A DNA stretch of 64,000 nucleotides from a virus: IMG/VR virus record IMGVR_UViG_3300022752_000023, positions 32,001 through 96,000 of that record, one strand, 5' to 3'. The translations under genes were made by a program, and so were the position numbers. Below are positions 1 to 57,120 of this stretch, piece after piece; position 1 is the first letter of the stretch; the number at the start of each line of letters is the position of its first letter. Below the pieces are notes generated by a model that was not told the origin of the DNA, made no database searches, and saw only the letters and a list, made by a program, of their open reading frames with translations.

Positions 1-302
1 TCGTGAAGCGCGTAGTGGCTGCGCAGCTGATTATCGGCTTGCGGCGTCAAAATCGTCCGCCGCCAATCGTTTCTGGGTTCGCCCATGACGATCGGACACC
101 AGTCGATTTTTTTGACGTCCGTGTGATGCCTATTGGCGATCTTGGCCGCGTAGCGCATACACGACAGCCAAGCGGACGGTAAAAACATAACGCGCTGGCT
201 CGGGTCGCGATCAAAGCAAAAAATGACTTGGCCGTGCCGCCTCTTTTTTGCCGCGCCAAGACACACACGGTTGAACCGGATTTTGATAGTTATTTCTTGC
301 AT
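1..302 (-). CDS. Partial ORF (runs off the left edge), putative RAMP-superfamily (Cas7/Csm3-like) protein
   Basis: Manual translation from the ATG at 302: MQEITIKIRFNRVCLGAAKKRRHGQVIFCFDRDPSQRVMFLPSAWLSCMRYAAKIA...HYALH(E/D), with no stop before base 1. It starts 2 nt after the upstream stop. The strand ending in LG and the RD-x4-hxhPS-x4-hR pattern resemble the first two RAMP motifs. Confidence 0.5.
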   Translation of the reverse strand, partial: MQEITIKIRFNRVCLGAAKKRRHGQVIFCFDRDPSQRVMFLPSAWLSCMRYAAKIANRHHTDVKKIDWCPIVMGEPRNDWRRTILTPQADNQLRSHYALH

Positions 303-303
303 G

Positions 304-1245
304 TCACGGCTGCTTCTTGCTCATATGCTCTGCGTACGCTGCGCGCTCAGTCGGCGTCTTGAAAAACATGTTAGGCGCGAACAACCCGTCTTTCGCACCA
401 CGACGCATCTCAAGACCATCAAGCCAGTTGTACCGCAAATAACGCACAAACGCCTGCGAGGCGCGCAGATCACCTTTAGTGCCGCCGCGGACGGCTTTGT
501 GAATGCGGTATAAAAAGTTTGCCGGATTTTGCAGATCAACTTCCGCCGGGTCGACAGTTTTCCACGCACGTAAAACATTTGCGCAGCGCAGTTCTCGACT
601 TTTGTGTAGCAAGCGCGTAGGCGTAGATACGTACTCCTGCACTTGTGGCGTTAAGCCTAAAAACAGTTCGAGCTTTGCCGCCCGGTCGGGTGCTTTTCGG
701 TCAACGTACCAGCGCGGATCAACAATAGTAGCCAGTAGCTGCGCCGCGACCTCTTCGGACAACGTCGGTATGAACATCAGCGCCTTGTGCGCCGGGTGCA
801 TACGAAAATACGTTTTTGCCGCGTCGTCAAAAACGAAGTTTGCTCGCTGCAGCCGACCGAGCATGGCGTACGTCGGATAGTCGTGCACGGAGAGTTTGTG
901 CCACCCGCCGGCCGCCGGCGCAACGTCTACGCTGCGCATCCGGCGCAGCACAATCTGCGGGTCATAAATGTCGTCTGCCGTGTGTAAAATATTCGGCCCG
1001 GCCACCTCGACGCGATTGATCTCGTTTTTGTAATGCCGCAGATACAGCGCAGAAATTAGCTCTGCGTTTTGCGGCAAACCCAGCACACGAACCTGCACAC
1101 CCATGCCATTAAGAACCGGAGAAAGTAAAAACGAATCTAACAGCTGATCAGAGTTTGTTGCCGGGCCGATGCCGACTGAAAACCAGATCCGCCCATCTGT
1201 GTGCGTGTGCAGTTTGATTACGTTTTCATCAACTACGCTGTACAT
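304..1245 (-). CDS. IS110-transposase/Nop5/Tas-like protein, apparently lacking the DEDD catalytic residues
   Basis: LMFIPTLSEEVAAQLLATIVDPRWY...KLELFLGLTP matches the IS110 C-terminal/Nop pattern LxxIPGhGxxxAAxhhAxIGDxxRF...LxxYxGLxP. The N-terminal part has RNase H-like strand/helix spacing (VRVLG...VEVAGP...DIYDP). Confidence 0.55.
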   Translation of the reverse strand: MYSVVDENVIKLHTHTDGRIWFSVGIGPATNSDQLLDSFLLSPVLNGMGVQVRVLGLPQNAELISALYLRHYKNEINRVEVAGPNILHTADDIYDPQIVLRRMRSVDVAPAAGGWHKLSVHDYPTYAMLGRLQRANFVFDDAAKTYFRMHPAHKALMFIPTLSEEVAAQLLATIVDPRWYVDRKAPDRAAKLELFLGLTPQVQEYVSTPTRLLHKSRELRCANVLRAWKTVDPAEVDLQNPANFLYRIHKAVRGGTKGDLRASQAFVRYLRYNWLDGLEMRRGAKDGLFAPNMFFKTPTERAAYAEHMSKKQP

Positions 1246-3382
1246 GCCGTAACTCCGGGGCCTCTAGTTCAATTGCCGATTCAAACAAATGCGACAGATT
1301 GATTGCGTGCGTAACCAGCAAGCACTGCAAGCCTTTCGCGGTAGACAACTCGCGTAATTTTTCAAGAACCGGCGCTAAAGCCTGAATACGCGGCTGATCC
1401 AAAGACGCGGTCGGCTCATCCAAGGCGAGGAGCCCGATTTCTTCTGCAAACATGGCGTTGACGGCGACGCGAAACGCAAGTGCCAAGACCGTCTTCTGCC
1501 CGACAGATAATCGTTGAGCGACTTGTCTTCGCCCGTCGAAGAACTCGGCAATAAAGGTTGGTGTTCCATCCGCGGCTACCTTGATAACAAAGTTAACTCG
1601 AAACACCTGCAGCAGCTCGTTAATCGCGGACTCTAACCGCTGTAAGTTGCGTTGCGCTACGAGTCGCGGCGCGTTCTTTAACGCCTCTCGCGCCTTCTCG
1701 GCAACGCCCGACCAACTCCGTAATTTTTTAGCGCGCTCCTCTTGCTGCCGAACATCCGCTGCCTGCTCATCTAGTCGTTTCTTCTCAAACAAAATTTGCG
1801 CGCGCTGATCTGATAAACCCGTCCGCGTCTTCAACTGCGATTGCAGCTGTTGCAGCCGTGTCTGCGCCATATGTGCGTCCGCCTGCGTTGTCGAAATTTG
1901 CGCTAGATCGTCCTCTAGTTGTTTTTTACGCGCACGTAAAGCCTCAATGGCGCCATTCACCTGCGCCCGCTCTTCGCGAGCTTTCTGCGCTAACGGCTCA
2001 ATCTCTTTTTTAACGCGCTGAAATTCTTCGTAGTCGACGACCGCCTGTTGTAACTCGTCCTCGCTTAGATCTGGCGGTTTTACGGCCAGTAAATCTTTTT
2101 CCGCTGCGTCAAGCTGCTGCTCCTTCGCTTCGCGCGCTTTCTGCCGTTTTTCCCAATCCTGCCACACACCCTCTTTAAACGCCTGACGGCTAGCGGCATT
2201 TTTCAATTCCGCCAGCTCTTCTTCCATTTTAATAAGATCTGCTTTGTATTGTTCAACCTGCGCGGCAAGTTGAGACGACGGCGTGTGGCACGTCGGGCAT
2301 TCGGCTACGCCCTCCGATGAAAACATATCAATAAAACGCTTCGCTTCTTTAATGCGCTGCTCACGCGAGTGTTGATCGCGCCGCATCTCTTCGGCTGTGG
2401 GCTGTCCGGGCTTTTCAGGTTGCTGGTCTTTCTCTCGCTCGGCGGCGAGTTGCGCGCGAGTAAGCTGAAAGTTTTCCTTGGCTTTGGCAACGCTCTTGTA
2501 GCTGGCCCAGTGCCCCAGCGCGACTCTCGCCGCAGCGTGCGACTCTTCTTGCCCGTTTGCCGCGGCCGTCAGCGCGAGCAAGTCAGCGTCGTACTGCGCC
2601 GACGCGTTTACAAGATCGTCTAACTTTTTCTGCTGCTGCTCCAGTTGCTGTTCGAGCTTGGCCAGCTCACTGGCGCCGCGGTCACGTGCTTCCCACTGCT
2701 GAATCGTCGTCTGGTCGGCCCGCATAAGCGACACAATGTCATCAGGATTTGGCAGTTGCGCAATTTGAGTAGACAACTCGGCCGCCTGCTGTGCCGCAGC
2801 GGCAGCCTGCGTCGCTATTTCGTCCGCGGTTTGAACAATTTCAGGAATGTTTAACTTTGATAGAGACTTGCCAATCACGTCTTGACATTTGTCCGCGCGA
2901 GCAGTGTTAAACAATCGCTGAAAAAACTTATCTGTGTCAGTTTGATTGTCGTCGATAAACGAAAAAATCTCGGTCTGCGCGACGATGATAAACCGACTAA
3001 TAAATTTGGCGTCGACACCAAGCAACTTTTCTATGCCGGCAGTTACGCTCTTATCGCCGCGGCCGATTTCTTTACCATCAACTACCAACGTCGCCTGCTC
3101 CTTTTCGGGCAGCAGGTGCCGCGTCACGACGGCGATATGGCCGTTGTGCTCAAATTCCAGCGTGGCGTACGCCGGTTCGCCTTCGCGGGCATATTGCGAA
3201 ATGTTGTCGGCTTTCACGCCGAAGTTTGGATTCTCGCCGGTCAGCAGCCACCGAATCGCGCCGAATAAGCTGCTCTTGCCAGAACCGTTTTCGCCGAGAA
3301 TCGCTACCAGCCCGCGGGTAAACTCACACACTCGATAGCGGTGGTGTACCCAATTCTTCACTTCTAGTCGCAAGAGCTGCAT
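1229..3382 (-). CDS. sbcC: Rad50/SbcC-like SMC ATPase (T4 gp46-like recombination nuclease subunit)
   Basis: Walker A GENGSGKSS, long coiled coil, central CPTC zinc hook, signature LSVGQK, Walker B/D-loop LALDEPTASLD and H-loop LVTH. Confidence 0.93.
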   Translation of the reverse strand: MQLLRLEVKNWVHHRYRVCEFTRGLVAILGENGSGKSSLFGAIRWLLTGENPNFGVKADNISQYAREGEPAYATLEFEHNGHIAVVTRHLLPEKEQATLVVDGKEIGRGDKSVTAGIEKLLGVDAKFISRFIIVAQTEIFSFIDDNQTDTDKFFQRLFNTARADKCQDVIGKSLSKLNIPEIVQTADEIATQAAAAAQQAAELSTQIAQLPNPDDIVSLMRADQTTIQQWEARDRGASELAKLEQQLEQQQKKLDDLVNASAQYDADLLALTAAANGQEESHAAARVALGHWASYKSVAKAKENFQLTRAQLAAEREKDQQPEKPGQPTAEEMRRDQHSREQRIKEAKRFIDMFSSEGVAECPTCHTPSSQLAAQVEQYKADLIKMEEELAELKNAASRQAFKEGVWQDWEKRQKAREAKEQQLDAAEKDLLAVKPPDLSEDELQQAVVDYEEFQRVKKEIEPLAQKAREERAQVNGAIEALRARKKQLEDDLAQISTTQADAHMAQTRLQQLQSQLKTRTGLSDQRAQILFEKKRLDEQAADVRQQEERAKKLRSWSGVAEKAREALKNAPRLVAQRNLQRLESAINELLQVFRVNFVIKVAADGTPTFIAEFFDGRRQVAQRLSVGQKTVLALAFRVAVNAMFAEEIGLLALDEPTASLDQPRIQALAPVLEKLRELSTAKGLQCLLVTHAINLSHLFESAIELEAPELRHVQRS

Positions 3383-4496
3383 CGTTAGGTTCTCCTGTCA
3401 TGTATTTTGAAAACTGTACATCAAGCTCTTTGTTTGCGTCTTCAGCTGCAAGCAACGCCGCAGCCAGCTTATAAGCGTCAGTGCCGGCGCCTAGTAAATC
3501 ACCGAGCGCCGACAGTAAATCATTTTTGGCAACATCACGTGTGCTCGCGCGTTTGTCGCCGTCGTCCTTGTTTGTCAGCGCCTCACAAAATACGTGGGCC
3601 GACTCGCCAAGCGCGGTGACGAGGCGGATGTACGCGTCAGGTAGCTGTTTGTTGAACTTGACGCGCACAATCGGCTTAGCAATCTCGGCAGGCAGCTCGG
3701 CAAACTCGCACATATCTTTGATGTCGCGCTCAAACTGCCCGGCACACAAGCTATCCAGCAACTCCTGCTCGCGCACGCTGTAGTTGATAAACCGGCGTGT
3801 CTTAAGCGGTACCGGCCAAAACTCAAAGCCGCCGTCGTGCGTGTCGTTGATTACAAAGAAAAACTTTGACGGATCTTCGCCGCAATCTTGCATGCAGATA
3901 GAACCGGGCGACAGCATTCGAATCGGCTTCCCCTGCGCGTTGGTGCTTTCCACGGTTTTAGTGACGTGAAAGTCGCCAGCCAACACGGTCTGAACATGAT
4001 GCACGTCAGTCAACTCGCATTCGGTGCGGCCGACGTTGCCCATGAAATCTTTCCAGACTTGATGCACGATTAAAATATCTGTGTCAGCCGGAACTTCTTT
4101 GAACGCGGTCTGAATCTCTCCGCGCGGAAGCCAGTCGAGCCCGTATACGCGAACGCCATTGATGGTCACAGTTTGTTTGTGAATGTGTCGTGACCATTTG
4201 TGTACGCTCAACCACGGCGCATTCCGATCATACTCGTGATTGCCTTGAATATAGTAAACATCCAAGTTTGCGACCTGCATCCGACTCAGTCCGTTGCACA
4301 GTTGCGCAATTGGTCGCGCGGAGTTGCTTTTCTTTTCCAAAACATCGCCGCCAAGAATCAGCGGCAGCCGATGTTCGACGCAGTAGTCAATAATCTGATT
4401 GAAGCTGTAATACGCGTCGCCATAAATGCCGGGACGCGTTGACCATGCGCCGTCTTCGAGATGCAGGTCGGCGGTAAAAACGAAAAGAGGTTTCAC
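3324..4496 (-). CDS. sbcD: Mre11/SbcD-like metallophosphoesterase nuclease (T4 gp47-like)
   Basis: Motifs ADLH, GGD, GNHE, HQ and GDFH, then PGS. It lies next to sbcC. Confidence 0.92.
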   Translation of the reverse strand: MKPLFVFTADLHLEDGAWSTRPGIYGDAYYSFNQIIDYCVEHRLPLILGGDVLEKKSNSARPIAQLCNGLSRMQVANLDVYYIQGNHEYDRNAPWLSVHKWSRHIHKQTVTINGVRVYGLDWLPRGEIQTAFKEVPADTDILIVHQVWKDFMGNVGRTECELTDVHHVQTVLAGDFHVTKTVESTNAQGKPIRMLSPGSICMQDCGEDPSKFFFVINDTHDGGFEFWPVPLKTRRFINYSVREQELLDSLCAGQFERDIKDMCEFAELPAEIAKPIVRVKFNKQLPDAYIRLVTALGESAHVFCEALTNKDDGDKRASTRDVAKNDLLSALGDLLGAGTDAYKLAAALLAAEDANKELDVQFSKYMTGEPNDAALATRSEELGTPPLSSV

Positions 4497-6395: not shown

Positions 6396-6466
6396 TTCGG
6401 GGACTAGGATTCGAACCTAGAATAATCCGTCCAAAGCGGATTGTGATACCATTTCACCATCCCCGA
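6396..6466 (-). tRNA. tRNA-Gln(TTG)
   Basis: Acceptor TCGGGGA/TCCCCGA, anticodon arm ATCCG-CTTTGGA-CGGAT and T arm CTAGG-TTCGAAT-CCTAG. Confidence 0.93.
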
Positions 6467-6477
6467 GCCGCGCATTG

Positions 6478-6640
6478 AATCCCTTCATTTACGTATCTTC
6501 TGGCGCACACCTCGGATACCGTCATGACAAGCGTCGCCAGCTCGTGGTTATGACCCACTCACGGTTTGGGTGCCGGACCGTCGGATGATTGCAACGGCTT
6601 TAGCGACCAACTGGGGCACCGGCATGCCCACCGGGATATC
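6478..6640 (-). ncRNA. Candidate structured ncRNA (~160 nt) directly upstream of tRNA-Gln
   Basis: ORF-free, with multiple helices: ATCCC/GGGAT closing, GGTGCC/GGCACC, GCCGT/ACGGT, GTGG/CCAC, CTGGCG/CGCCAG, and a possible GTATC/GATAC pseudoknot. Confidence 0.45.
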
Positions 6641-29179: not shown

Positions 29180-31473
29180 TTAGCCCTTTGCGGGTGCCGC
29201 GACGCGACGCGGACGTGACGACGTGACAGCCGGCTTACCGACACGCGTGTAAATACCGCGGTTGTCAGCCGACAGGCAGCGACCCTCAGCCCAGTTCCGC
29301 AGCCGCTCGATCTGCTCAGCCGACGTCACCGAAATCGGCACGACGTTCTGGGCAGCTTCAACGAGCGGAATGTCAAGCAGCGCTGCGAGCCTGCAGCACG
29401 ACTTGATCTCGGCGCCGGTCCAGTTGGTGTCGTCCGGCTTATCCTGTGCGGCGTCGACACCGAAATGCTTCAGGTAGATGTCCCAGATTGCCGCGCGCTG
29501 TTCGGCGCCCGGCAGATCTACAAAGAAAATACCGTCGAAACGCTCGGCGCGAGCAAACGGCGCCGGCAGCTGGCTGGCGTCGTTGCAGGTGCCGATAAAG
29601 AACACGTCCGACGTGTGGTCATTCAGCCACGTCAGGAGCGTACCAAACAGGCGCGCAGAAACGCCGCTGTCGGTCTGCCCGGATGAGCCTACGCCGGCGA
29701 GACCCTTTTCGATTTCCGTTGATGTTACGAATTAGCCGTTTCCGCTAATTCTCCTGTATTTTCATACAGGACCAGACTATGTCATCTTGTAGCGTCGCAC
29801 ATTGCATCGGTTGCACAAACCTTTCGATGCGTGCGGCGAAGTGGTTAGTCCGCAGGAAATGCATGCTTCGTATTGCGTGCTCCAACGGCCATTTTTTAAT
29901 AGTTTTGGTGTGGCGTATTTTGCTGTGCGTGCTGCCTGCAGTTCTGTTTTGTGTTCTAACAAATGACAGCGTCTACAGACAGTTTCAAGATTGTCTAAAG
30001 CGTTGTTAGGGTTTTTATTCCCTCGCCCTAGACGATCTTTGTGGTGCACGACAAGTTTTTTCTTTTTGCCGCAACGAGAACATTGTTGTTCGTCGCGTTT
30101 AATTACGGCTGTTCTTTCGCCGTTAAAATGTCGTTGTTCGCGGTAATTTTTTCGATACTGCAAACAATCGGCGTGGTTGTCGTAATACCATTGTTTTTTG
30201 GTGTTGGCTATGCGTTGACGATTTTTGTCGTCGTTGCGATAGCATTCCAAATAACAGATTTTGCACAGTCCTTTTGCCATATGCAGCCGTTCGGTCAGGC
30301 CGCACGATTGGCAACAGGAATATTTTTTTGACCACATCTCAAAACTCTACTACAAGGCCCCCATTTCGAACCCACTTGGGTCCTACGATCTTTCGATCTA
30401 GTCGTTGAACCTTCCAAGTATATTGCTACTTGGCTTGGCTGCAAGTTGCCCGGCTTACGCTGAGGGGTTTCTTGCAATTAAAGGGCTTTTCACTGATTTG
30501 TCGCCAAATCAGGGGACTGAACTCAATCCACAAACAACACGCACGGAGCCATTGCGTCAACCTGCTTGAGCGCGCGACGCATGTTACCCTCGGACTCGCC
30601 CACGAACTTGCCCATGAGCGAACCGAAATCCAGCATTACGGTCGGACGACCGACTTCGTTGCCAAGTGCTTTGGCAAACTGCGACTTGCCGCAGCCCGGA
30701 GGCGACAGCAAAAGAACGCCCTTGGGGCGCTTGTCTACGTTGGTTTCGCCTTGCCGCCGCATGGCGCGCAGGCAGAAACTCTTAAGGTTTTCGAGGCCGC
30801 CAAGATTCTCAAAGTTGGCGTCGCCACGATAGAGCGTCATCGTACCGCTCTTTTCAAGCGTCTGCGCCTTGATACCCCAGATCGTATCGGGCGACAGCTT
30901 GTTGTTGCGCACCAGCGACAGCGCGAACGCGTTCTCGGCCTCCTGCCGAGTCAGGCCGCGCGAGGCGTCAACCACCGCCGCGACTTCCTGCTCGGTCGGC
31001 TTGGCGAACGGGGAGCCGTCAGGGAACAGCTCGGTGCACACGGTCTTGAGCTGTTCCAGATCCGGCAGCTCGTGATGCACCACGGTAAACAACTTCTCTA
31101 CCTCGGGCTGCAGCTGCAGCACCGGCGCGACGATAATGATATGTTTACCCTCGCCCTTACCCTGCACGACGCGGTTTGCAAGTGCCTGCAGCACCTCCGG
31201 GTTGCCGAGAAACCGGTGAAAGTTCTTCAGCACAATAAGCATGGGCTGCTTGGGCTGCGGCTGATCAAGAAACCGCAACGCCTGTAGCGGGCCGGGAGCC
31301 TGCGCGTTCCCCGAATAAAGCTGGCGGTCGATGTCCCAGACATCGAATCCCCATTCCTTCTCTTCCGTTACACGACGAACCGACGCAATCGCGTCGTCGC
31401 ACTCCTGTGATTCAACCCAGATGCCGGAGAAGCCGGCGCATACCAGCTCCTTGATTTCTTTTTCGAGCGACAC
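29180..31473 (-). CDS. Ycf46-like AAA ATPase, spliced (exon 1 31473-30526, exon 2 29716-29180; about 494 aa)
   Basis: Exon 1 has Walker A SPPGCGKS and ends CVLFVD. Exon 2 begins EIEKGL and contains sensor 1 GTCN and the Arg finger RAERFD. Joining them restores Walker B LFVDEIEK in frame. Confidence 0.9.
29717..30525 (-). mobile_element. Group I intron (809 nt) with internal HNH ORF
   Basis: The 5' exon ends in U, and P1 forms GGAU/GUCC with a U.G pair. Core elements are P AATTGCAAGAAA, Q AACTTGCAGC, R GTTCAACGACTA and S AAGATGACATAGTCT. There are P9 hairpins and a terminal G before GAA ATC. Confidence 0.92.
29777..30337 (-). CDS. Intron-encoded HNH homing endonuclease with duplicated flanking zinc-finger modules
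   Basis: CSRCG...LVVHHKD...NNALDNLETVCRRCH. The pattern WSxxYxxCxxCGLTxxxHxxKGLCxxC occurs at both termini, and the stop codon lies within the S element. Confidence 0.9.
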   Translation of the reverse strand: MWSKKYSCCQSCGLTERLHMAKGLCKICYLECYRNDDKNRQRIANTKKQWYYDNHADCLQYRKNYREQRHFNGERTAVIKRDEQQCSRCGKKKKLVVHHKDRLGRGNKNPNNALDNLETVCRRCHLLEHKTELQAARTAKYATPKLLKNGRWSTQYEACISCGLTTSPHASKGLCNRCNVRRYKMT

Positions 31474-39988: not shown

Positions 39989-40192
39989 CGCGGTAGGCGG
40001 GAGTCGAACCCGCTGCAGTAGATTTTCGGCCCGTCCGTCATTTCGGCAATTAAGTATGCGCACTTTTGCACACCGGAGATCAATCCGGCGGTAAATCACT
40101 CGCTCGCATACACCGGCTTCGTCCGCTCAGGTGATCAACCCATATCCGTCTACTGCATCAAGCGTTAAGCGCGCGCCCCGCGCATCTACCGC
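39989..40192 (-). ncRNA. tRNA-like (tmRNA-like topology) RNA of 204 nt
   Basis: Acceptor GCGGTAG/CTACCGC, T arm GCGGG-TTCGACT-CCCGC, and a 9-bp TGCAGTAGA/TCTACTGCA helix enclosing about 125 structured nt. It lies 4 nt downstream of tRNA-Thr. Confidence 0.7.
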
Positions 40193-40196
40193 AAAG

Positions 40197-40267
40197 AGCC
40201 CCCAGAAGGAATCAAACCCTCATCGGCTGATTACAAATCAGCTGCATTATCATTATGCTATGGGGGC
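40197..40267 (-). tRNA. tRNA-Thr(TGT)
   Basis: Acceptor GCCCCCA/TGGGGGC, D stem GCAT/ATGC, anticodon arm GCTGA-TTTGTAA-TCAGC and a variant T loop TTTGATT. Confidence 0.88.
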
Positions 40268-47643: not shown

Positions 47644-49030
47644 TCAGGCGCGGGCGTGGCGGTGACGATAAAGCTAATCGCTCTGTCAGGCTTGCCGCGT
47701 TTGAACGGAACGATAGTAAAGGTCTGCTGCTCTGTCGCAACAAGAAAGCCTAGGCGCTTTTCTAGGTCGAGGTGCGCGTCAAGATTTATAGTTTCTGCCG
47801 CATTTATGGCGGCTTTTTCGCTTTTAAACAAACCGATCATTTTGTCGCCATAGCCATACCGGTTTCGCCACATAACGAGATAGCCGCTAATGCCGTTGCG
47901 TAAGGCGGAGGGTGTGTATTTTTTAAGCCTATGACCTTCCAGATACGTTGCTGGTCGTCGAGCTAACGTTGGGTTGCGGGCTTTTGCGGCCGCTTGCTGT
48001 GTTTTCTTTCCACCCGAGGCGCGCGGAGCGCGCCTCTTCTTTTGCGTTTTTGACATTTCAGTCCTCTACTCCAAACTTGTCGATGTGCGCCAGTCTGGCG
48101 CAATAGAACTCCGCTACGAGCCCGGCTACGTCGCCGAACCGTTTGACCATGTCGGGAATTACCTGCTCGTTAAACACGCGCATAATAACTTTCCGAAACT
48201 TGGCTATCGCTTCTTTTGTGTAGCCCTCTTCTCGCGCTTTCTCTGCGGCTTTGCGGACATCGGCATTGCCGTCGAGTTGCAGTTGAAGATAAGCCGGGTT
48301 TACAAATTCGATTATATGCCCGTATACCTGTCTAACTTCGTACGAGCACGGGACGTCGAAAACGCCGCGGCCGGGCCAGCGTTCTCCGTTAACCGCGTCC
48401 TCTGACAGATATCGCAGCTTTCCCAGCGTCCAACCGAATGCCGCCGCGTCATCATTCGGTTCAGCCATGACAAAGGCTGGTTTTGGCGCTGGCGGTTGTT
48501 TGTCAAGTTTTGCTTTGCTTTTACGCGCCATAATTCACAATAGCTAAGAAAAATCGTGAGGGGTTAGTTCTGACTGCGTAGCCGGGGAGTCACATCAGCC
48601 GTCAAGGACGAACTAGATGTGCCCCGACTACACAGTCAGAACACGCTGCGGATTAGTCTCCGCAGTTGCAAGCAAGGTACGCATGGTACTGGGCTATAGC
48701 CTCAATATTAGGATCGATCTCTTTAAAAAATGGCCCAACATCATCCGTGGAGGCCATCTCACCCCGAAACATCGCGGTCGTATATTCGTGATACAGCCGG
48801 GCCATATCTCCGCGCAGTTTCTTCTTGGTGAATTTAAGCACGCGCTCCTTCAGAAAGGCAGCGCGTTCCCAGAAGTTCGGCAGCGCATCAAGCTGGTCCC
48901 GAAACTTCTCTGCAGTCTTCTCGAAAAGTTTATGCGCCCTATCAGGAACAATCTGAAACTCAGGCGCTGACTTCTTGCATCGAGCAGTGACTGCAAGGCG
49001 GATTTGCTCCGCCGGGGGCGAAAGAAGCAT
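47607..49030 (-). CDS. Three hypothetical genes (47607-48056, 48058-48531, 48653-49030)
   Basis: Collinear ORFs of 125-157 aa. Confidence 0.65.
48567..48642 (-). ncRNA. Long rod-like hairpin RNA element (76 nt)
   Basis: GTTCTGACTGTGTAGTCGGGG...CCCCGGCTACGCAGTCAGAAC pairs fully on the minus strand using G.U wobbles, with an inner CACATC/GATGTG helix. Confidence 0.55.
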
Positions 49031-49320
49031 GCGTTAACTCCCTTGTAACGCTGTGAAGAAGAGCTGCTGATACGACACAGCAGCGACAATAAATATGCCG
49101 CGATTTTGGCAAAAATTTAGTCGCCGTTCGGAGTTTGCGAAAAGCGAAAGTGCCTGTCATTACAGGACTTACGGCGCGATTAGTCGTGTTCTGGAAAATG
49201 GAAAATGCAATCGCCGCCCCGCGCTGCCTAAGAGCATGAAGCCCGGAGGTTACGTGGCACGTAACCTTTCGGCAGACCGCAGGGCGGCGAAAGATCGCAG
49301 CCTACGCGTGGCAGGTGCGG

Positions 49321-51759: not shown

Positions 51760-54700
51760 TTATGTATTTAAAATTGCGCGCAACGCGTTTTGGAGGTTTG
51801 TGTTTGACCCGAGCTGCGCAATAAATTCATTTAAAAACGCGGACGATTTAACGAGTTCGGCAACGTTAATTGTGATACTGCCGTTGATGTTATTTGTGTT
51901 TGCGGTAATTGTACCGCTACCGAACGCCGCTGGTGTAAATGTAATTATACCGCTTGTCGGTATCGCGCCGGTTGCGCCCTGCGGGCCTGTTGCGCCAGTA
52001 GCGCCTACATTTCCGCACGGGCCTGTCGCGCCGTTCGCGCCCGCCGGACCCCGAGACCCAGTCGCACCTTGCGGTCCTGTGTCGCCGCGCGGACCTCGCG
52101 GGCCGACAGGCCCTGTTACACCACGCAGCCCCTTTTCGCCTGTTAAACCTGTAACGCCGGTTGCGCCCTGCGGCCCGGGCAAGCCTGTACAGCCGGTTGC
52201 ACCTTGCGGGCCAGTTTGTCCCGTTATACCGGTTGCGCCGGTAATGCCGTCTAAATAAACAACTGTTTCTGTTCCATCTAAAACAACTACCGCGCCGCGT
52301 GGACCGGTCGCGCCGCGCATACGACCAAGATAAGTCCAGTAACCGGGCACAACATCGTCGGCGCCGCGCCACACATATGTAAACGTGTTTAGATGATCCA
52401 GCGGGTCATCGTTTAATTCGATTGACCACGCGTCGCCCGCTCTAGGTGTCTGACTAACCCCAGCTTGATTTATTATTTTTGTCGGCAAATCGTCGACCGA
52501 ATATAGCGGCGTTAGGTAAAATGTTTGATCTGACGGCGTGGCTGTCCAGATATAAGTACCAGAATAAGCAGGTAACGGGTTTTCAATTAGACAGCCAAGC
52601 TCGCCAATTTTGTTGATGTCGCCGTTAATAAGAACTTGCGCAATAACTGCCGTAAACTCTTCACTAAATTCTCTGTTTTCATCAATAACAGCTTTTACTG
52701 TGTCGCAGTCGTACAGCGCATTATTGCCAATGTAAAACCAACCAGATTCTTCTGTAGTTGTTTTGGTGTTGCAAAAAAGGCCGTCGGGGGACAGCGGCAA
52801 ATAAATGTACGCGTCGCCTTCCTGCGCGGGATATTTCGCGTTGCGAAACGCCGCACTTGCAATGAATTTTACTTCCGGGTCTTCTATTGCGTTTATTTGC
52901 TCATAAAATTCGTTGGTTTTTTGGGCCCCGCGGGCCGATAGATATACAACACTGCCGCGAACAAACGGCGCGCGTGCATTGCTATTCGGGTTGTTGCGGT
53001 TCGAACCGCTATGTCCAAATTTATAAGGAAAGTCATACGCGACACCGAGCATGCGTACACCCACAGCGTCAGTGCCGTTGCGGCCGTCGCGGCCGCGTCT
53101 ACCGCCGGCCGGGCCTTGCGGCCCGGCCGGGCCTCTGGCGCCGGTGGCCCCGGTGGCGCCAGCGACTCCTGTCGCGCCTTTGGGGCCGGTATAGCCAGTT
53201 AAACCGCGGACGCCTGTCGCGCCGGCGGGCCCTTGCGCGCCGTTAGTGCCGTTTATACCCGCAGGGCCTGTGGCACCAGTCGCGCCGCTTGGTCCGGTTA
53301 TACCTCGGGGCCCCGTCAAGCCGGCGGGGCCTTGCGGGCCTGTTGCGCCTTGCGCGCCGGTATTACCTCTTGGCCCGGCGGAGCCGGCCCGACCGGCTGG
53401 GCCTTGCGGGCCTGTTGCGCCCCTATTTCCTGCGGGGCCTGTAGGGCCTGTTGGGCCTGTTGGGCCCTGACTACCTGTGGCGCCAGTCGCGCCGCGAGCG
53501 CCTGTCGCGCCGGCGGCGCCAGCATCGCCTGTACAACCCGTCGGCCCCGTTTCGCCTTGCGGTCCAATAATACTAATACCGGGAACGCCCTGCGGACCGA
53601 TGGCGCCGGTGTCACCCTTCTCGCCCTTTTCTCCCTTTTCGCCTTTAAGTCCTTGCGGCCCCTGCATACCCTCCATGCCCGTAAACCCTTGCGGGCCGCG
53701 GGGGCCGGGAACACCTTGATTGCCTTTATCGCCTTTATCGCCTTTATCGCCTTTTTCTCCTTGATCGCCTTTATCGCCTTTATCGCCTTTATTGCCTTTA
53801 TCGCCTTTTTCTCCTTGATCGCCTTTTTCTCCTTGATTACCGGCTGGTCCCGTCGGGCCCTGTTCACACTTACCGCCACCACCGCCGCCGCTGCTGCTGC
53901 TTGGACAAGCTGTTGTGTTTAAATTAATGTTAACCGTTAATTCGCCGCTCTCTAAGTTGTAGTCAATCGTGCCTGTGCCTATTCCGGTTGGTGTAATGTT
54001 TACTGTGCCGCCAGATACACCGGTCGGAATATACGCGTAGCCGCCGACTTTGTACTTACACCAATCGGTTTCAAGTAGGTCGACAAAAATTTCTGGTGTG
54101 CCGCCGCCGTACGGCCGCATTTCTATGTGGCTGCCTTCAAATGTTGGTACACATGGTTTTGGGACATAGATACCCAGTTCAATGTCGTAAATACACGTAG
54201 GCGGCTCATCAGGCGACGAGCCTTCAATAGGTGTCGGTAGCACACTCGCCGTGCCGTATGGGTCGCCGTCTGTTTCTACAACATCAACATTAACTCTAAT
54301 TTCTGGGCACGGCGCCGGCGGGCACTTTGGTATCCAGATGTACGGCGTCAGCTTGAACTCACAAAGATCAAGCTGCTCTACCAGAATCTCAGCGCGCGGC
54401 TCGATGCCGCAGCCCGTCAGCGCAATACCCTCACTGCCGTGGATCTTCGGAATACACGGTTTTGGTATCCCGATATACAGCGGCAATACAACGTCGCAGA
54501 AATAGCCCGGATCAAAATTGAACACCGGGCCGGCGGCGAACGCGTACGGATCGGCCTGCGGCGGCAAGACGTTCATGTCCACCACGAGCGATACAGTCGT
54601 GCATGGTGGTTTTGGAATCGGAATAAACAGCTCAATATCAATTTCGTAACAACATACTGGCGGATCGTTTGTGCCGCGTTTTTCGTCGTATTCGGCGCAT

Positions 54701-57120
54701 TTTTGGATATCAAATTTGATTTGTTGCTGTACGTCGTACCCAACGGCTGACTGCAGATTTTTTACTCTGAATTGTGTGCACGGCGGCCGCGGTGTTGGAA
54801 TATCAATGTGTATATCAAACAAAAAGTTGCACGTGCCGGGGTCGTCGCATGTCGGCGGCGTTGGGACGGGGAAGAGGTTGAAAAAGCTAAGCGTGTTACT
54901 CAACCGGCCACCCGGGCCGTCTTGATAATGACTGTTGACGGTTAAAAAACGTGAAATGATCGGGCAGCGCGGACGAGGAATAGGCACTACGATTTCGAGT
55001 TCAATTTCAAAATCGCAGCGTTCTGGTTGATCGCAGCCCGCCGCCGGTGTCGGATTTTTTGTAATCTCAAAACGCGACTGCCCGGTCGCGCAACTTGTGC
55101 CCGCAAAACCTGTTTTAACTGTAAACAGTTTTTTTGTGATCTCAATGCACGGTGGCGGCGGGATCGGTACGACAATTTCTAGTTCGACGTCAAAATTGCA
55201 TTGATTTGGTGTGTTGCAGTCACCTTCTTGAGGGTCTGGAGTAATTTCAAAACGATTTGTTTTGCCTTGTACGCAAACAGAATTACTAAAACCTGTTGAT
55301 ACTTCAAATGTTTTGACATTAATGTTTGGACACGGCGGCTGCGGAATTGGCACATCAATTGTCAACTCAACGTCAAATTGACACTGATCTGGTGTATTGC
55401 AATCTCCGTCTATATGGTTCGGCGCAATCTCAAACTTTGAACTGCTGTTTGTGTCGCAATTTGGGTCGTCATATTTGACATTAACTTCAAATTTTGTGGT
55501 GTTAATTATTGGACAAAACGGGCGCGGAATTGGGACGATAATTTCTAGCTCGACGTCGAAGTTGCATTGATTTGGTGTATTGCAGTCACCTTCTTGCGGG
55601 TCGGGCGTGATTGTGAACGTTGACCCGCGTTGCGTGCATGTAGCGTCACTAAAACCCGTAATAACGTTTAACGTCGGCGGGTTAATTACCGGACACGGCG
55701 TGCGCGGAATTGGGACGACAATTTCTAGCTCGACGTCGAAAGCGCATTGATCGTGATTATTGCAGTCTCCCAGTGTGTGATTTGGAGTGATCGTAAAAGT
55801 TGAGCCGCCTTCCGCACAGGACGAATCACTAAAACCGGTTTTTACTGCAAGCTTTGATGCGTTAATTATTGGGCAAAACGGCCGCGGAATTGGAATGTTA
55901 ATTTCAAGTTCGACGTCAAATTCGCAGCGGTCTGGGTTGTTGCAGTCGCCGCGTGTGTGGTTTGGACTAATGACAAACCTTGACGGATCCACAGAGCAAG
56001 CGCCATCATTAAACGATGTCGTGATGCTCAGTATGGGTTGATTAATTGTCGGGCACGGGGTACGCGGGATCGGTACATTAATTTCAAGTTCAAAATTAAA
56101 TTCGCACTGCTCGGGTGTATTGCAGTCGCCGGCTACGTGATTTGTTGTGATTTCAAATCGGTTTTGATTTGCTCCGTTAACGCAAGCAAAGTCGGAAAAA
56201 CCTGTCCTGAAAATGAGGGTTGGCGGATTTAAAATCGGGCACGGCGTACGCGGAATAGGAATCAAAAGCTCAAGCTCAACGTCAAATTGACATTGATCCG
56301 GCGTGTTGCAGGCGGTGTTGCCGGGTGTGTGGTTCGGCGTGATGCTAAAAAAGTTTTGCTTATCGTCTAGGCAGGGCGAATCAGAAAAACCGCTGTCGAC
56401 CGAAAATTTTATGAGATTGATTGATGGGCACGGGGTGCGCGGAATGGGTATAGCGATTTCAAGTTCGACCTCAAACTGGCACGGGTCATCTGTAGTGCAG
56501 TTGCCCGGCGTAATAACAGGGTTAATCGAAAATTTGTTTTGCTTACCTAGCAGGCACACGTCATCTGCGTACCCTAAGTACACACCAAAATCGGCTATAA
56601 AAATTTGCGGGCACGGTGTTTTGGGTACCGGGATTTGAAGGTCCAAATCAATAACAAATTCGCACTGATCAGGCGTATTGCAGTCGCCCGGGGTAATGAT
56701 CGGCGTGACGCGAATTTCGCTTCTGGGTGTAATGCAGTCTTGATAACCAACTTCAAGGCCAAACTCACCGGCCGTAATTGTCGGGCACGGCGTACGCGGG
56801 ATCGGGATATTGATATCAAGCGCGACGTCGTAGCGGCACGGATCAATATCTTGTCGCGTAATTGTCAGTTCGTTTTTTGGCGGCGGACAGCCGTCGTTGC
56901 CCTCGTCGACAAAGTTGACGCCGATAGATGTCAGCGTCGAAAAATCTGGACAGCGTGTGCCGACCTCTGTCGGGGGCTCGCGCGGAATGATTGGCGCTTG
57001 GCACCCGTAGATCGGCGGCGGTAGCGGTTCAATTTCGCAGATTGACGAAATAAAATCGAAATCCACCTTCGGGGTGGGCTCAATCGGGCACTGCGAATTT
57101 TTGAAAAGATTTTCGAGCAT
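51760..57120 (-). CDS. Giant fiber protein (1786 aa): ~17 Cys-rich ~60-aa repeats plus two collagen segments
   Basis: Repeat IPIPRTPCP...GF.D..C...F.ITP...[16 protein letters not shown], Gly-X-Y tracts and GDAY/GDAW modules. Confidence 0.85.
53714..53841. repeat. 9-bp tandem repeat (TCGCCTTTA variants) encoding GDK/GEK/GDQ triplets
   Basis: Directly visible near-perfect tandem copies. Confidence 0.85.

What the first reader, a model, noticed from the sequence alone, without database searches (positions are those of the whole stretch)
304..1245. Domesticated, catalytically eroded IS110/Tas-like protein
It keeps the two-part IS110 layout (RNase H-like N-terminus, then the helix-hairpin IPxLxxxxAAxLLAxIxDPxxY and the GLxP motif). 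The DEDD acidic residues and the catalytic Ser after GLxP are not evident. It overlaps sbcC and has no flanking noncoding ends, so it behaves as a resident gene rather than an IS. It could represent an intermediate between IS110, Tas and Nop5.
Basis: partly seen in the sequence, partly recalled or inferred. Interest (0 to 1): 0.72.

Follow-up and report, generated by a model that had tools for sequence, protein, structure and literature searches.

The report
Array-less dead TasR-like phage protein
A core gene of an uncultured ~200-kb lake phage encodes a protein shaped like the RNA-guided TasR/IS110 enzymes; it has lost key cutting residues, has no guide-RNA array and does not move, and it sits fixed between the SbcC repair ATPase and a small Cas7-like protein, so an RNA-guided fold seems to have been taken over for DNA replication or repair.

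Summary
Its AlphaFold model (pLDDT 86.6) matches TIGR-TasR best (Z 10.7, 233 residues), then TasH and IS621. 38 of 63 diverse relatives hit NCBIfam's Tas model weakly; only 2 hit IS110. The window comes from a 144-kb virus record, 71% complete. The gene is single-copy and keeps one position: sbcD-sbcC-Tas-like-p165-helicase-DnaB-primase-UDG/PolA in 40 of 40 related loci. The SbcC-Tas-like-helicase order still holds at about 31% identity. By secondary-structure order the RuvC quartet reads H13/E80/D122/T125, and no member has Asp at the first position. S207 aligns with the IS110 catalytic Ser, but only 17 of 63 members keep it. No TIGR-like array was found in this genome or in four complete relatives. 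The next gene, p165, folds as a Cas7/Csm3 RAMP. I also found an unlisted ~170-nt structured RNA about 5 kb upstream, but some Tas-bearing relatives lack it. A 2026 preprint briefly mentions an array-less compact TasR clade in dense viral genomes, probably this one. This scan found the same family earlier on other DNA. Most likely it is a non-cleaving nucleic-acid-binding factor of the replication/recombination module; a hidden guide RNA is not excluded.

The parts
304..1245 (-). Tas-like gene (P0001, 313 aa), single copy, core phage gene
   Evidence: ORF and translation. Model pLDDT 86.6. Best folds are TasR, TasH and IS621. Family of 752 clusters at 50% identity.
886..1245 (-). N-terminal RuvC/RNase H-like domain (about residues 1-120). 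Putative active-site positions are H13, E80, D122 (just beyond this range) and T125.
   Evidence: Residues 1-112 match RuvX, YqgF, RuvC and the dead YqgF domain of Spt6 at Z 6-7. Column counts: position 13 H47/63 with no Asp; position 80 E41 Q17; position 122 D54 E6; position 125 T25 S22 A8. The mapping rests on secondary-structure order; hhalign found no N-domain sequence similarity to IS110.
307..885 (-). C-terminal Nop/IS110-Tnp-like domain (about residues 121-313)
   Evidence: TasH Nop domain Z 8.3-8.6 over residues 122-308. hhalign to IS110 over residues 139-253, P=0.0023. NCBIfam TIGR_Tas_endo hits at residues 120-225 in 38/63 members.
706..771 (-). Helix-hairpin-helix-like motif IPTL...DPRWY (residues 159-180)
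   Evidence: Aligns with the IS110 'IPGIG...' motif. D176-P177-R178-W179 are (nearly) invariant in 63 diverse members.
625..657 (-). GLTP motif (residues 197-200) and S207, which aligns with the IS110 catalytic Ser
   Evidence: hhalign pairs GLTP with GLxP and S207 with the Ser of the IS110 'S[ST]G'. S207 is kept in 32/34 close members but only 17/63 diverse ones.
1229..3382 (-). SbcC/Rad50-like ATPase; its 3' end overlaps the Tas-like start (translational coupling)
   Evidence: Pfam SMC_N, AAA_23 and SbcC_Walker_B; phrog_77 at 2.2e-35. The overlap is conserved in all loci. Synonymous-site conservation peaks only at the gene overlaps.
3324..4496 (-). SbcD/Mre11-like phosphoesterase
   Evidence: Pfam Metallophos; phrog_100.
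1..302 (-). First 100 codons of p165, a 165-aa Cas7/Csm3/Cmr4-like RAMP protein that runs off the window start (genome 31805-32302)
   Evidence: Model pLDDT 75. Foldseek gives 65 hits at E<=1e-3; all those listed are Csm3, Cmr4 or Cas7. VIA Z 10.2, 9.9 and 9.1. Present after the Tas-like gene in 40/40 loci and in the distant locus L060, but not detected in L045/L046.

Best explanation
P0001 is a divergent, array-less branch of the TIGR-associated (Tas) proteins within the IS110/Nop-domain superfamily. It has been taken over as a fixed core gene of the replication/recombination module of ~200-kb freshwater phages. It keeps the RuvC-like N-domain fold and the Nop/IS110-type C-domain with its helix-hairpin-helix and GLxP motifs. 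It lacks the first and fourth acidic residues of the RuvC quartet. It has no long coiled-coil-like helices, no TIGR array and no transposon ends. The gene is translationally coupled to SbcC and is followed by a Cas7-like RAMP protein and an SF2 (ResIII/Helicase_C) helicase. Shown: the fold, the family link to Tas, single copy, strict synteny, absence of arrays, and non-conservation of the catalytic positions. Inferred: it acts as a non-cleaving nucleic-acid-binding factor that recognises DNA, branched DNA or RNA:DNA hybrids. It would do so alongside SbcCD and the helicase during recombination-dependent replication or end processing, possibly together with the Cas7-like protein, rather than as a nuclease, recombinase or programmable defence effector.
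For: Fold: TasR 9mty Z 10.7 with 233 residues aligned over 8..309; TasH Z 8.3-8.6 over the C-domain; IS621 Z 8.4; ISCro4 Z 7.2. Sequence: 38/63 diverse members hit NCBIfam TIGR_Tas_endo (best 2.1e-9) and only 2 hit IS110. In the six-frame genome this ORF is the only place matching either model. hhalign to IS110 gives P=0.0023 over residues 139-253. Erosion: no Asp at position 13 in any of 63 members, E/Q at 80, T/S/A at 125, and S207 kept in 17/63. Resident gene: one copy in each of 5 complete ~203-205-kb genomes. The order sbcD-sbcC-Tas-p165-helicase-dnaB-primase-polA holds in 40/40 loci at 48-93% identity. Relatives at about 31-32% identity keep SbcC, the Tas-like gene, the helicase and, where the contig reaches, DnaB and UDG/PolA in the same order. 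No arrays: TRF and repeat scans of the 144-kb record and of four complete relatives show only coding (collagen-like, Ig-like) repeats. Synonymous-site conservation inside the gene is flat apart from the sbcC overlap, so there is no sign of an embedded RNA. Xu et al. 2026 (bioRxiv 10.64898/2026.09.09.750476) describe catalytically dead TasRs that still bind DNA. They also describe a divergent array-less compact TasR clade without a coiled coil in dense viral genomes.
Against: The active-site mapping rests on secondary-structure order, not on a residue-level superposition, and the N-domain shows no sequence similarity to IS110. E80 and D122 are largely kept, and H13, H116 and H150 are highly conserved, so a non-canonical active site is not excluded. 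No Holliday-junction resolvase (Endo VII, RuvC, RusA) was found in this record or in four complete relatives, which leaves that job open. Having two neighbouring proteins with folds from RNA-guided systems (Tas-like and Cas7-like) argues that an RNA may still be involved. No binding or activity data exist, and there are no isolates.
Confidence: 0.55

Rival explanations
1. It is still RNA-guided. An array-less Tas-like protein, perhaps with the Cas7-like p165, would load an RNA made elsewhere: a phage transcript, the ~170-nt structured RNA at 6466-6638, or a host RNA. It would use that RNA to bind specific DNA without cutting, for example as a repressor, as an R-loop or origin factor, or to direct SbcCD and the helicase.
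For: Dead TasR and TasA act as RNA-guided repressors, and stem-loop tigRNAs can be encoded at flexible positions; Xu et al. leave the guide source of the array-less clade open. The neighbour p165 has a Cas7/Csm3 fold, which is an RNA-backbone-binding fold. A conserved, covarying, unlisted RNA lies about 5 kb upstream on the same strand.
Against: No array or repeated unit occurs in five genomes. The 170-nt RNA is missing from the complete relative G044 and from the syntenic flanks of L014, L024 and L031, even with filters off, so it is not an obligate partner. p165 is not detected next to the distant members L045/L046. There is no coiled-coil-like long helix of the kind TasR uses to form the dimer that holds a dual-spacer RNA. 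There is no embedded-RNA signal in the coding sequence.
Confidence: 0.25
2. It is an active structure-specific nuclease, namely the phage's Holliday-junction or branch resolvase, using a remodelled RuvC-like site built from E80, D122 and conserved histidines.
For: The N-domain has a RuvC/RuvX-type fold. E80 (E41, Q17) and D122 (D54, E6) are largely kept, and H13, H116 and H150 are highly conserved. No Endo VII, RuvC or RusA was found in this record or in four complete relatives. The gene sits in the recombination module next to SbcCD.
Against: No member has the beta-1 Asp, which from general knowledge is universal in RNase H-fold nucleases. Position 80 is Gln in 27% of members. After TasR and IS621, the best N-domain matches include the non-catalytic YqgF domains of Spt6 and Tex. 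The Pfam searches cover only three resolvase families.
Confidence: 0.12
3. It is a counter-defence decoy. The phage copies of Tas-like and Cas7-like proteins would soak up or mis-assemble host guide RNAs (CRISPR or TIGR).
For: Both proteins have folds of guide-RNA-binding subunits and lack nuclease residues or arrays.
Against: Counter-defence genes are usually variable and peripheral. This gene is a deeply conserved, translationally coupled member of the replication operon down to about 31% identity. No PADLOC hit was found.
Confidence: 0.05
4. It is a working IS110-type insertion sequence.
For: It has the IS110-like fold and the HhH/GLxP motifs, and S207 aligns with the catalytic Ser.
Against: It is single-copy, always at the same site, overlaps sbcC and abuts the next gene, so there are no ends and no room for a bridge RNA. 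The DEDD quartet is incomplete. It scores 12 bits against a cut-off of 140 for the IS110 model.
Confidence: 0.01

Closest known systems
TIGR-associated TasR (TaTasR, PDB 9MTY; Faure et al. 2025, PMC12045711), especially the catalytically dead stem-loop TasRs and the 'divergent tas clade' without coiled coil or array (Xu et al. 2026, bioRxiv 10.64898/2026.09.09.750476)
   Same: RuvC-like N-domain plus Nop-type C-domain in about 310 aa. Best fold match of all solved chains (Z 10.7, 233 residues). There are weak but recurrent hits to the NCBIfam Tas model. It is phage-encoded. Loss of RuvC catalytic residues also occurs in PateTasR and CsTasR. A dense viral genome with no room for an array fits the preprint's description.
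   Different: It scores far below the Tas model cut-off (15 bits against 100). There is no TIGR array or repeated unit anywhere in five genomes, and no long coiled-coil-like helices. It is a fixed core gene of a replication/recombination operon coupled to SbcC, with a Cas7-like neighbour, a context I did not find in the papers read. Identity with the preprint's clade could not be checked because its table is not public.
IS110-family bridge-RNA recombinases (IS621, PDB 8WT6/8WT9; ISCro4, 9T56)
   Same: The same two-domain fold (Z 7.2-8.4, 213-242 residues aligned). The IPxL...DPxxY and GLxP motifs align with IPGIG... and GLxP. S207 aligns with the catalytic Ser.
   Different: The DEDD quartet is incomplete and the Ser is not conserved across the family. 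There are no flanking ends or bridge RNA. It is single-copy and immobile. Only 2/63 members touch the IS110 model.
Cas7-family RAMPs (Csm3, Cmr4, type VII Cas7), for the neighbouring p165
   Same: RAMP/RRM fold over nearly the whole 165 aa (Z 8-10). It has a conserved acidic loop (FDRDP) after strand 1, where, from memory, Csm3 and Cmr4 carry their catalytic Asp.
   Different: It is much smaller. It has no hit to any Pfam, PHROG or PADLOC model, there is no CRISPR array and there are no other cas genes. It is embedded in a replication operon.
Archaeal Mre11-Rad50-NurA-HerA operons
   Same: A Mre11/Rad50-type pair followed by an RNase H-fold protein and a helicase or ATPase in one operon. This is an analogy recalled from general knowledge.
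   Different: Fold searches place P0001 with TasR and IS110. NurA was not among the listed matches. The helicase here is SF2, not HerA.

Membership tests
TIGR-Tas (TasR) | Nop-type C-terminal guide-RNA-binding domain | tested here: met
   Met at fold level: TasR Z 10.7 (233 aligned), and TasH Z 8.3-8.6 over residues 122-308.
TIGR-Tas (TasR) | Score at or above the curated cut-off of NCBIfam NF052498 (100 bits) | tested here: not met
   14.9 bits, E=0.019, residues 131-202 only. 38/63 relatives hit below the cut-off, best 2.1e-9.
TIGR-Tas (TasR) | RuvC domain with four conserved acidic catalytic residues | tested here: not met
   The fold is present, but the positions read H13/E80/D122/T125 and no Asp occurs at position 13 in 63 members. 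The mapping is by secondary-structure order, so residue-level confirmation is still needed. Dead TasRs are accepted family members.
TIGR-Tas (TasR) | Coiled-coil dimerisation element | tested here: inconclusive
   The longest helix in the model is 25 residues (255-279) and no long helical hairpin is visible.
TIGR-Tas (TasR) | Associated TIGR array (dual-repeat or stem-loop units) | tested here: not met
   TRF and repeat scans of the 144-kb record and four complete relatives show only coding repeats. No embedded-RNA signal was seen in the coding sequence. TIGRFinder itself was not available.
IS110 transposase | DEDD RuvC-like catalytic quartet and catalytic Ser in the Tnp domain | tested here: not met
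   Two of the four acidic positions are lost. S207 aligns with the Ser but is kept in only 17/63 members.
IS110 transposase | Noncoding ends encoding a bridge RNA; several copies; mobility | tested here: not met
   The gene overlaps sbcC and abuts p165. There is one copy per genome at a fixed syntenic site.
IS110 transposase | Score at or above the NF033542 cut-off (140 bits) | tested here: not met
   12.2 bits; 2/63 members hit at E<=0.1.
Nop5/Nop56/Nop58/Prp31 | Pfam Nop domain (PF01798) match and a fold match to Nop5 | tested here: inconclusive
   No Nop hit in 63 members at E<=0.1. Nop5 is not among the listed fold matches, which does not exclude it.
Cas7 / RAMP (neighbour p165) | RAMP fold | tested here: met
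   65 Foldseek hits at E<=1e-3; all those listed are Csm3, Cmr4 or Cas7. VIA Z 10.2, 9.9 and 9.1.
Cas7 / RAMP (neighbour p165) | Sequence-model match and a CRISPR-Cas locus context | tested here: not met
   No Pfam, PHROG or PADLOC hit. No arrays.

The most novel reading that the evidence does not exclude
The Tas-like protein and the Cas7-like p165 form a small ribonucleoprotein, or an R-loop-binding pair, that brings SbcCD and the SF2 helicase to particular DNA sites. Possible sites are an RNA-primed replication origin, or host or competitor DNA. That would be an RNA-guided module built into a phage's core replication/recombination machinery.
Probability: 0.15. Interest if true: 0.9.

Novelty: new variant of a known kind. 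Interest (0 to 1): 0.6.

Why it matters
The known relatives (IS110, TIGR-Tas, box C/D Nop5) all use a guide RNA. This large family (752 clusters at 50% identity) keeps the fold but has no array, no mobility and an incomplete nuclease site, and it is as conserved and as fixed in position as the phage's polymerase, primase and SbcCD. It addresses an open question raised by Xu et al. 2026: are array-less TasRs guided from elsewhere, or not guided at all? The conserved operon context and the Cas7-like neighbour give concrete partners to test. If an RNA is involved, this would be RNA guidance used for a housekeeping job in a virus. If not, it is a clear case of an RNA-guided effector fold reused as a DNA-metabolism factor.

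Tried and rejected
P0001 gave no hit in several sequence searches.
- Pfam, PHROGs and PADLOC found nothing for P0001 itself.
- The PDB sequence search found nothing with P0001 or A1; with A2 the only hit was one designed repeat peptide at E=1.5, which is noise.
- tblastn of P0001 and two distant members against 50,697 phage records found no match, so no isolate carries it.
- No longer or fused forms were found, which is weak evidence.
- hhalign of the N-domain against IS110 found nothing.

Several leads did not hold up.
- The protein-atlas feature search pointed to DUF4123 (score 0.92). No sequence or fold result supports this, so I dropped it.
- 9/63 members hit phrog_4285 'transposase'; I did not follow this up.
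- The 170-nt RNA as an obligate partner is weakened. It is absent from complete relative G044 and from three other syntenic flanks with filters off.
- Folds of 6467-6610 and 39989-40196 were no more stable than shuffles.

Some tools or data were not available.
- No listed sequencing-run holder is on record as RNA, and read laying was not used.
- The held supplements of Faure et al. contain none of six contig or locus identifiers of this family. Identity with the published 'divergent tas clade' could therefore not be checked.

Full report
**Observation.** The window is bases 32001-96000 of a 144,420-base IMG/VR virus record that CheckV rates 71% complete. ORF 304..1245 (-) encodes 313 aa (P0001). 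The start codon lies 17 nt inside the upstream gene, and the stop is followed within a base by the next start. The upstream genes are SbcC-like (SMC_N, AAA_23, SbcC_Walker_B; phrog_77) and SbcD-like (Metallophos; phrog_100).

**What the protein is.** P0001 has no Pfam or PHROG hit. It has weak NCBIfam hits to TIGR_Tas_endo (E=0.019) and IS110 (E=0.074), both at residues 131-202. In a six-frame search of the whole record, this ORF is the only place that touches either model.

The family is large: 752 clusters at 50% identity, nearly all about 310 aa. Scanned one by one, 38 of 63 diverse members hit the Tas model (best 2.1e-9), always at the same motif region. Only 2 hit IS110.

An AlphaFold model built from 34 sequences has pLDDT 86.6. 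The fold searches gave the following.
- Foldseek's top nine chains are TasR, IS621 and ISCro4.
- An all-against-representatives structural search puts TasR first (Z 10.7, 233 residues over 8..309) and TasH second (Z 8.3, C-domain).
- Re-alignment gives TasH 8.6, IS621 8.4 and ISCro4 7.2.
- The N-domain alone resembles RuvX, YqgF and RuvC, and also the non-catalytic YqgF domain of Spt6 and Tex.

hhalign against six IS110 transposases that I fetched aligns residues 139-253 (P=0.0023). It pairs IPTL with IPGIG, GLTP with GLxP, and S207 with the catalytic Ser. The N-domain shows no sequence similarity to IS110. The similarity therefore reaches well beyond a generic helix-hairpin-helix, and the family lies nearest Tas.

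**Catalytic state.** By secondary-structure order the RuvC quartet falls at H13 (strand 1), E80 (strand 4), and D122 and T125 (helix after strand 5). This mapping is an inference, not a superposition.

| Position | Residues in 63 diverse members |
|---|---|
| 13 | H47, no Asp in any member |
| 80 | E41, Q17 |
| 122 | D54, E6 |
| 125 | T25, S22, A8 |
| S207 | kept in 17 of 63 (32 of 34 in the close clade) |

The model has no helix longer than 25 residues, so a TasR-type coiled coil is not evident.

**Context.** The gene is single-copy in five complete 203-205-kb relatives. In 40 of 40 related loci (48-93% identity) the order is sbcD-sbcC-Tas-like-p165-helicase-DnaB-primase-UDG/PolA-p454. Members at about 31-32% identity keep SbcC, the Tas-like gene and the SF2 helicase in order, followed by DnaB and UDG/PolA where the contig reaches. 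Synonymous-site conservation inside the gene is flat except over the sbcC overlap. No fused forms were found.

No Endo VII, RuvC or RusA resolvase was detected in this record or in four complete relatives. The DNA occurs in lake and freshwater metagenomes.

**The neighbour.** I followed a lead from earlier notes of this scan and modelled p165 (pLDDT 75). It matches Csm3, Cmr4 and Cas7 throughout: 65 Foldseek hits at E<=1e-3 and VIA Z 10.2, 9.9 and 9.1. A homologue follows the Tas-like gene in the distant locus L060 (hhalign 99.5%). None was detected in L045/L046.

**Guide RNA search.** No TIGR-like array occurs in this record or in four complete relatives. All sizeable repeats lie in collagen-like or Ig-like coding regions. 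Rfam finds three tRNAs, a group I intron and a DUF3800-VIII RNA.

Comparing intergenic DNA across five genomes exposed a conserved element at 6466-6638 (-), directly 5' of tRNA-Gln.
- A covariance model finds one copy in the window and 21 related loci and, in two complete relatives (G045 and G046), at the place two of those loci come from.
- 93% of cells pair, against 35-40% in the slid controls.
- 23 of 29 pairs show compensatory change.
- It matches no Rfam family.
- It is absent from complete relative G044 and from three other syntenic flanks even with filters off. It is therefore not an obligate partner of the protein.

**Literature.** Faure et al. 2025 define TIGR-Tas. Xu et al. 2026 show that dead TasR and TasA act as RNA-guided repressors. 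They also mention one divergent branch of compact TasRs, without coiled coil or array, in dense viral genomes, and leave its guide source open. That description fits this family, but identity could not be verified. This scan had already found the family on other DNA, with similar conclusions.

**Verdict.** The reading 'domesticated, eroded IS110/Tas-like resident gene' holds. The 'intermediate to Nop5' idea has no support. The most likely role is a non-cleaving nucleic-acid-binding factor of the phage's SbcCD/helicase recombination-replication machinery (0.55).

Noticed in passing
window 6466-6638 (-): Unlisted ~170-nt structured RNA directly 5' of tRNA-Gln, on the operon strand. It occurs once in the window and 21 related loci. 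93% of cells pair, 23/29 pairs are compensatory, and 0/500 shuffles reach this. No Rfam family matches. By eye there are also covarying long-range pairings (hairpin-1 loop GCCGG with CCGGC; ACCC with GGGU). It is absent from complete relative G044.
   Followed up: yes
window 29753-30535 (-): Group I intron (Rfam RF00028, 67 bits, full length) inside the phage genome. The host gene was not examined.
   Followed up: no
window 49213-49288 (-): DUF3800-VIII RNA (Rfam RF03075, 44.8 bits against 40.2) with a stable fold, z=-5.6.
   Followed up: partly
window 48542-48617 (-): Near-perfect 76-nt hairpin (about -60 kcal/mol for the 121-nt stretch, z=-8.1), conserved in two closer relatives.
   Followed up: partly
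window 39989-40196 (-), next to tRNA-Thr 40196-40267: The stretch starts GCGGUAG and ends with a tRNA-like T-arm plus the matching CUACCGC. This suggests a tRNA-like gene with an insertion of about 130 nt. ARAGORN and Rfam are silent, and it is not conserved in the four relatives by BLAST.
   Followed up: partly
genome 29248-31911 (-), just left of the window (L044:9248-11911): The SF2 helicase after p165 carries a LAGLIDADG intein (Pfam LAGLIDADG_3, Hom_end). Intein presence varies among relatives.
   Followed up: no
genome 22611-25772 (-) (L044:2611-5772): The family A DNA polymerase is fused to an N-terminal uracil-DNA-glycosylase-superfamily domain. The fusion is conserved even in distant relatives.
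   Followed up: no
window 51760-57120 (-): A 1786-aa ORF full of collagen-like 9-nt repeats and 180-nt Ig-like repeats, probably a fibre. It accounts for nearly all tandem repeats in the window.
   Followed up: no
whole record and relatives G043-G046: No Endonuclease VII, RuvC or RusA-type Holliday-junction resolvase was detected in ~200-kb phages that encode SbcCD.
   Followed up: partly
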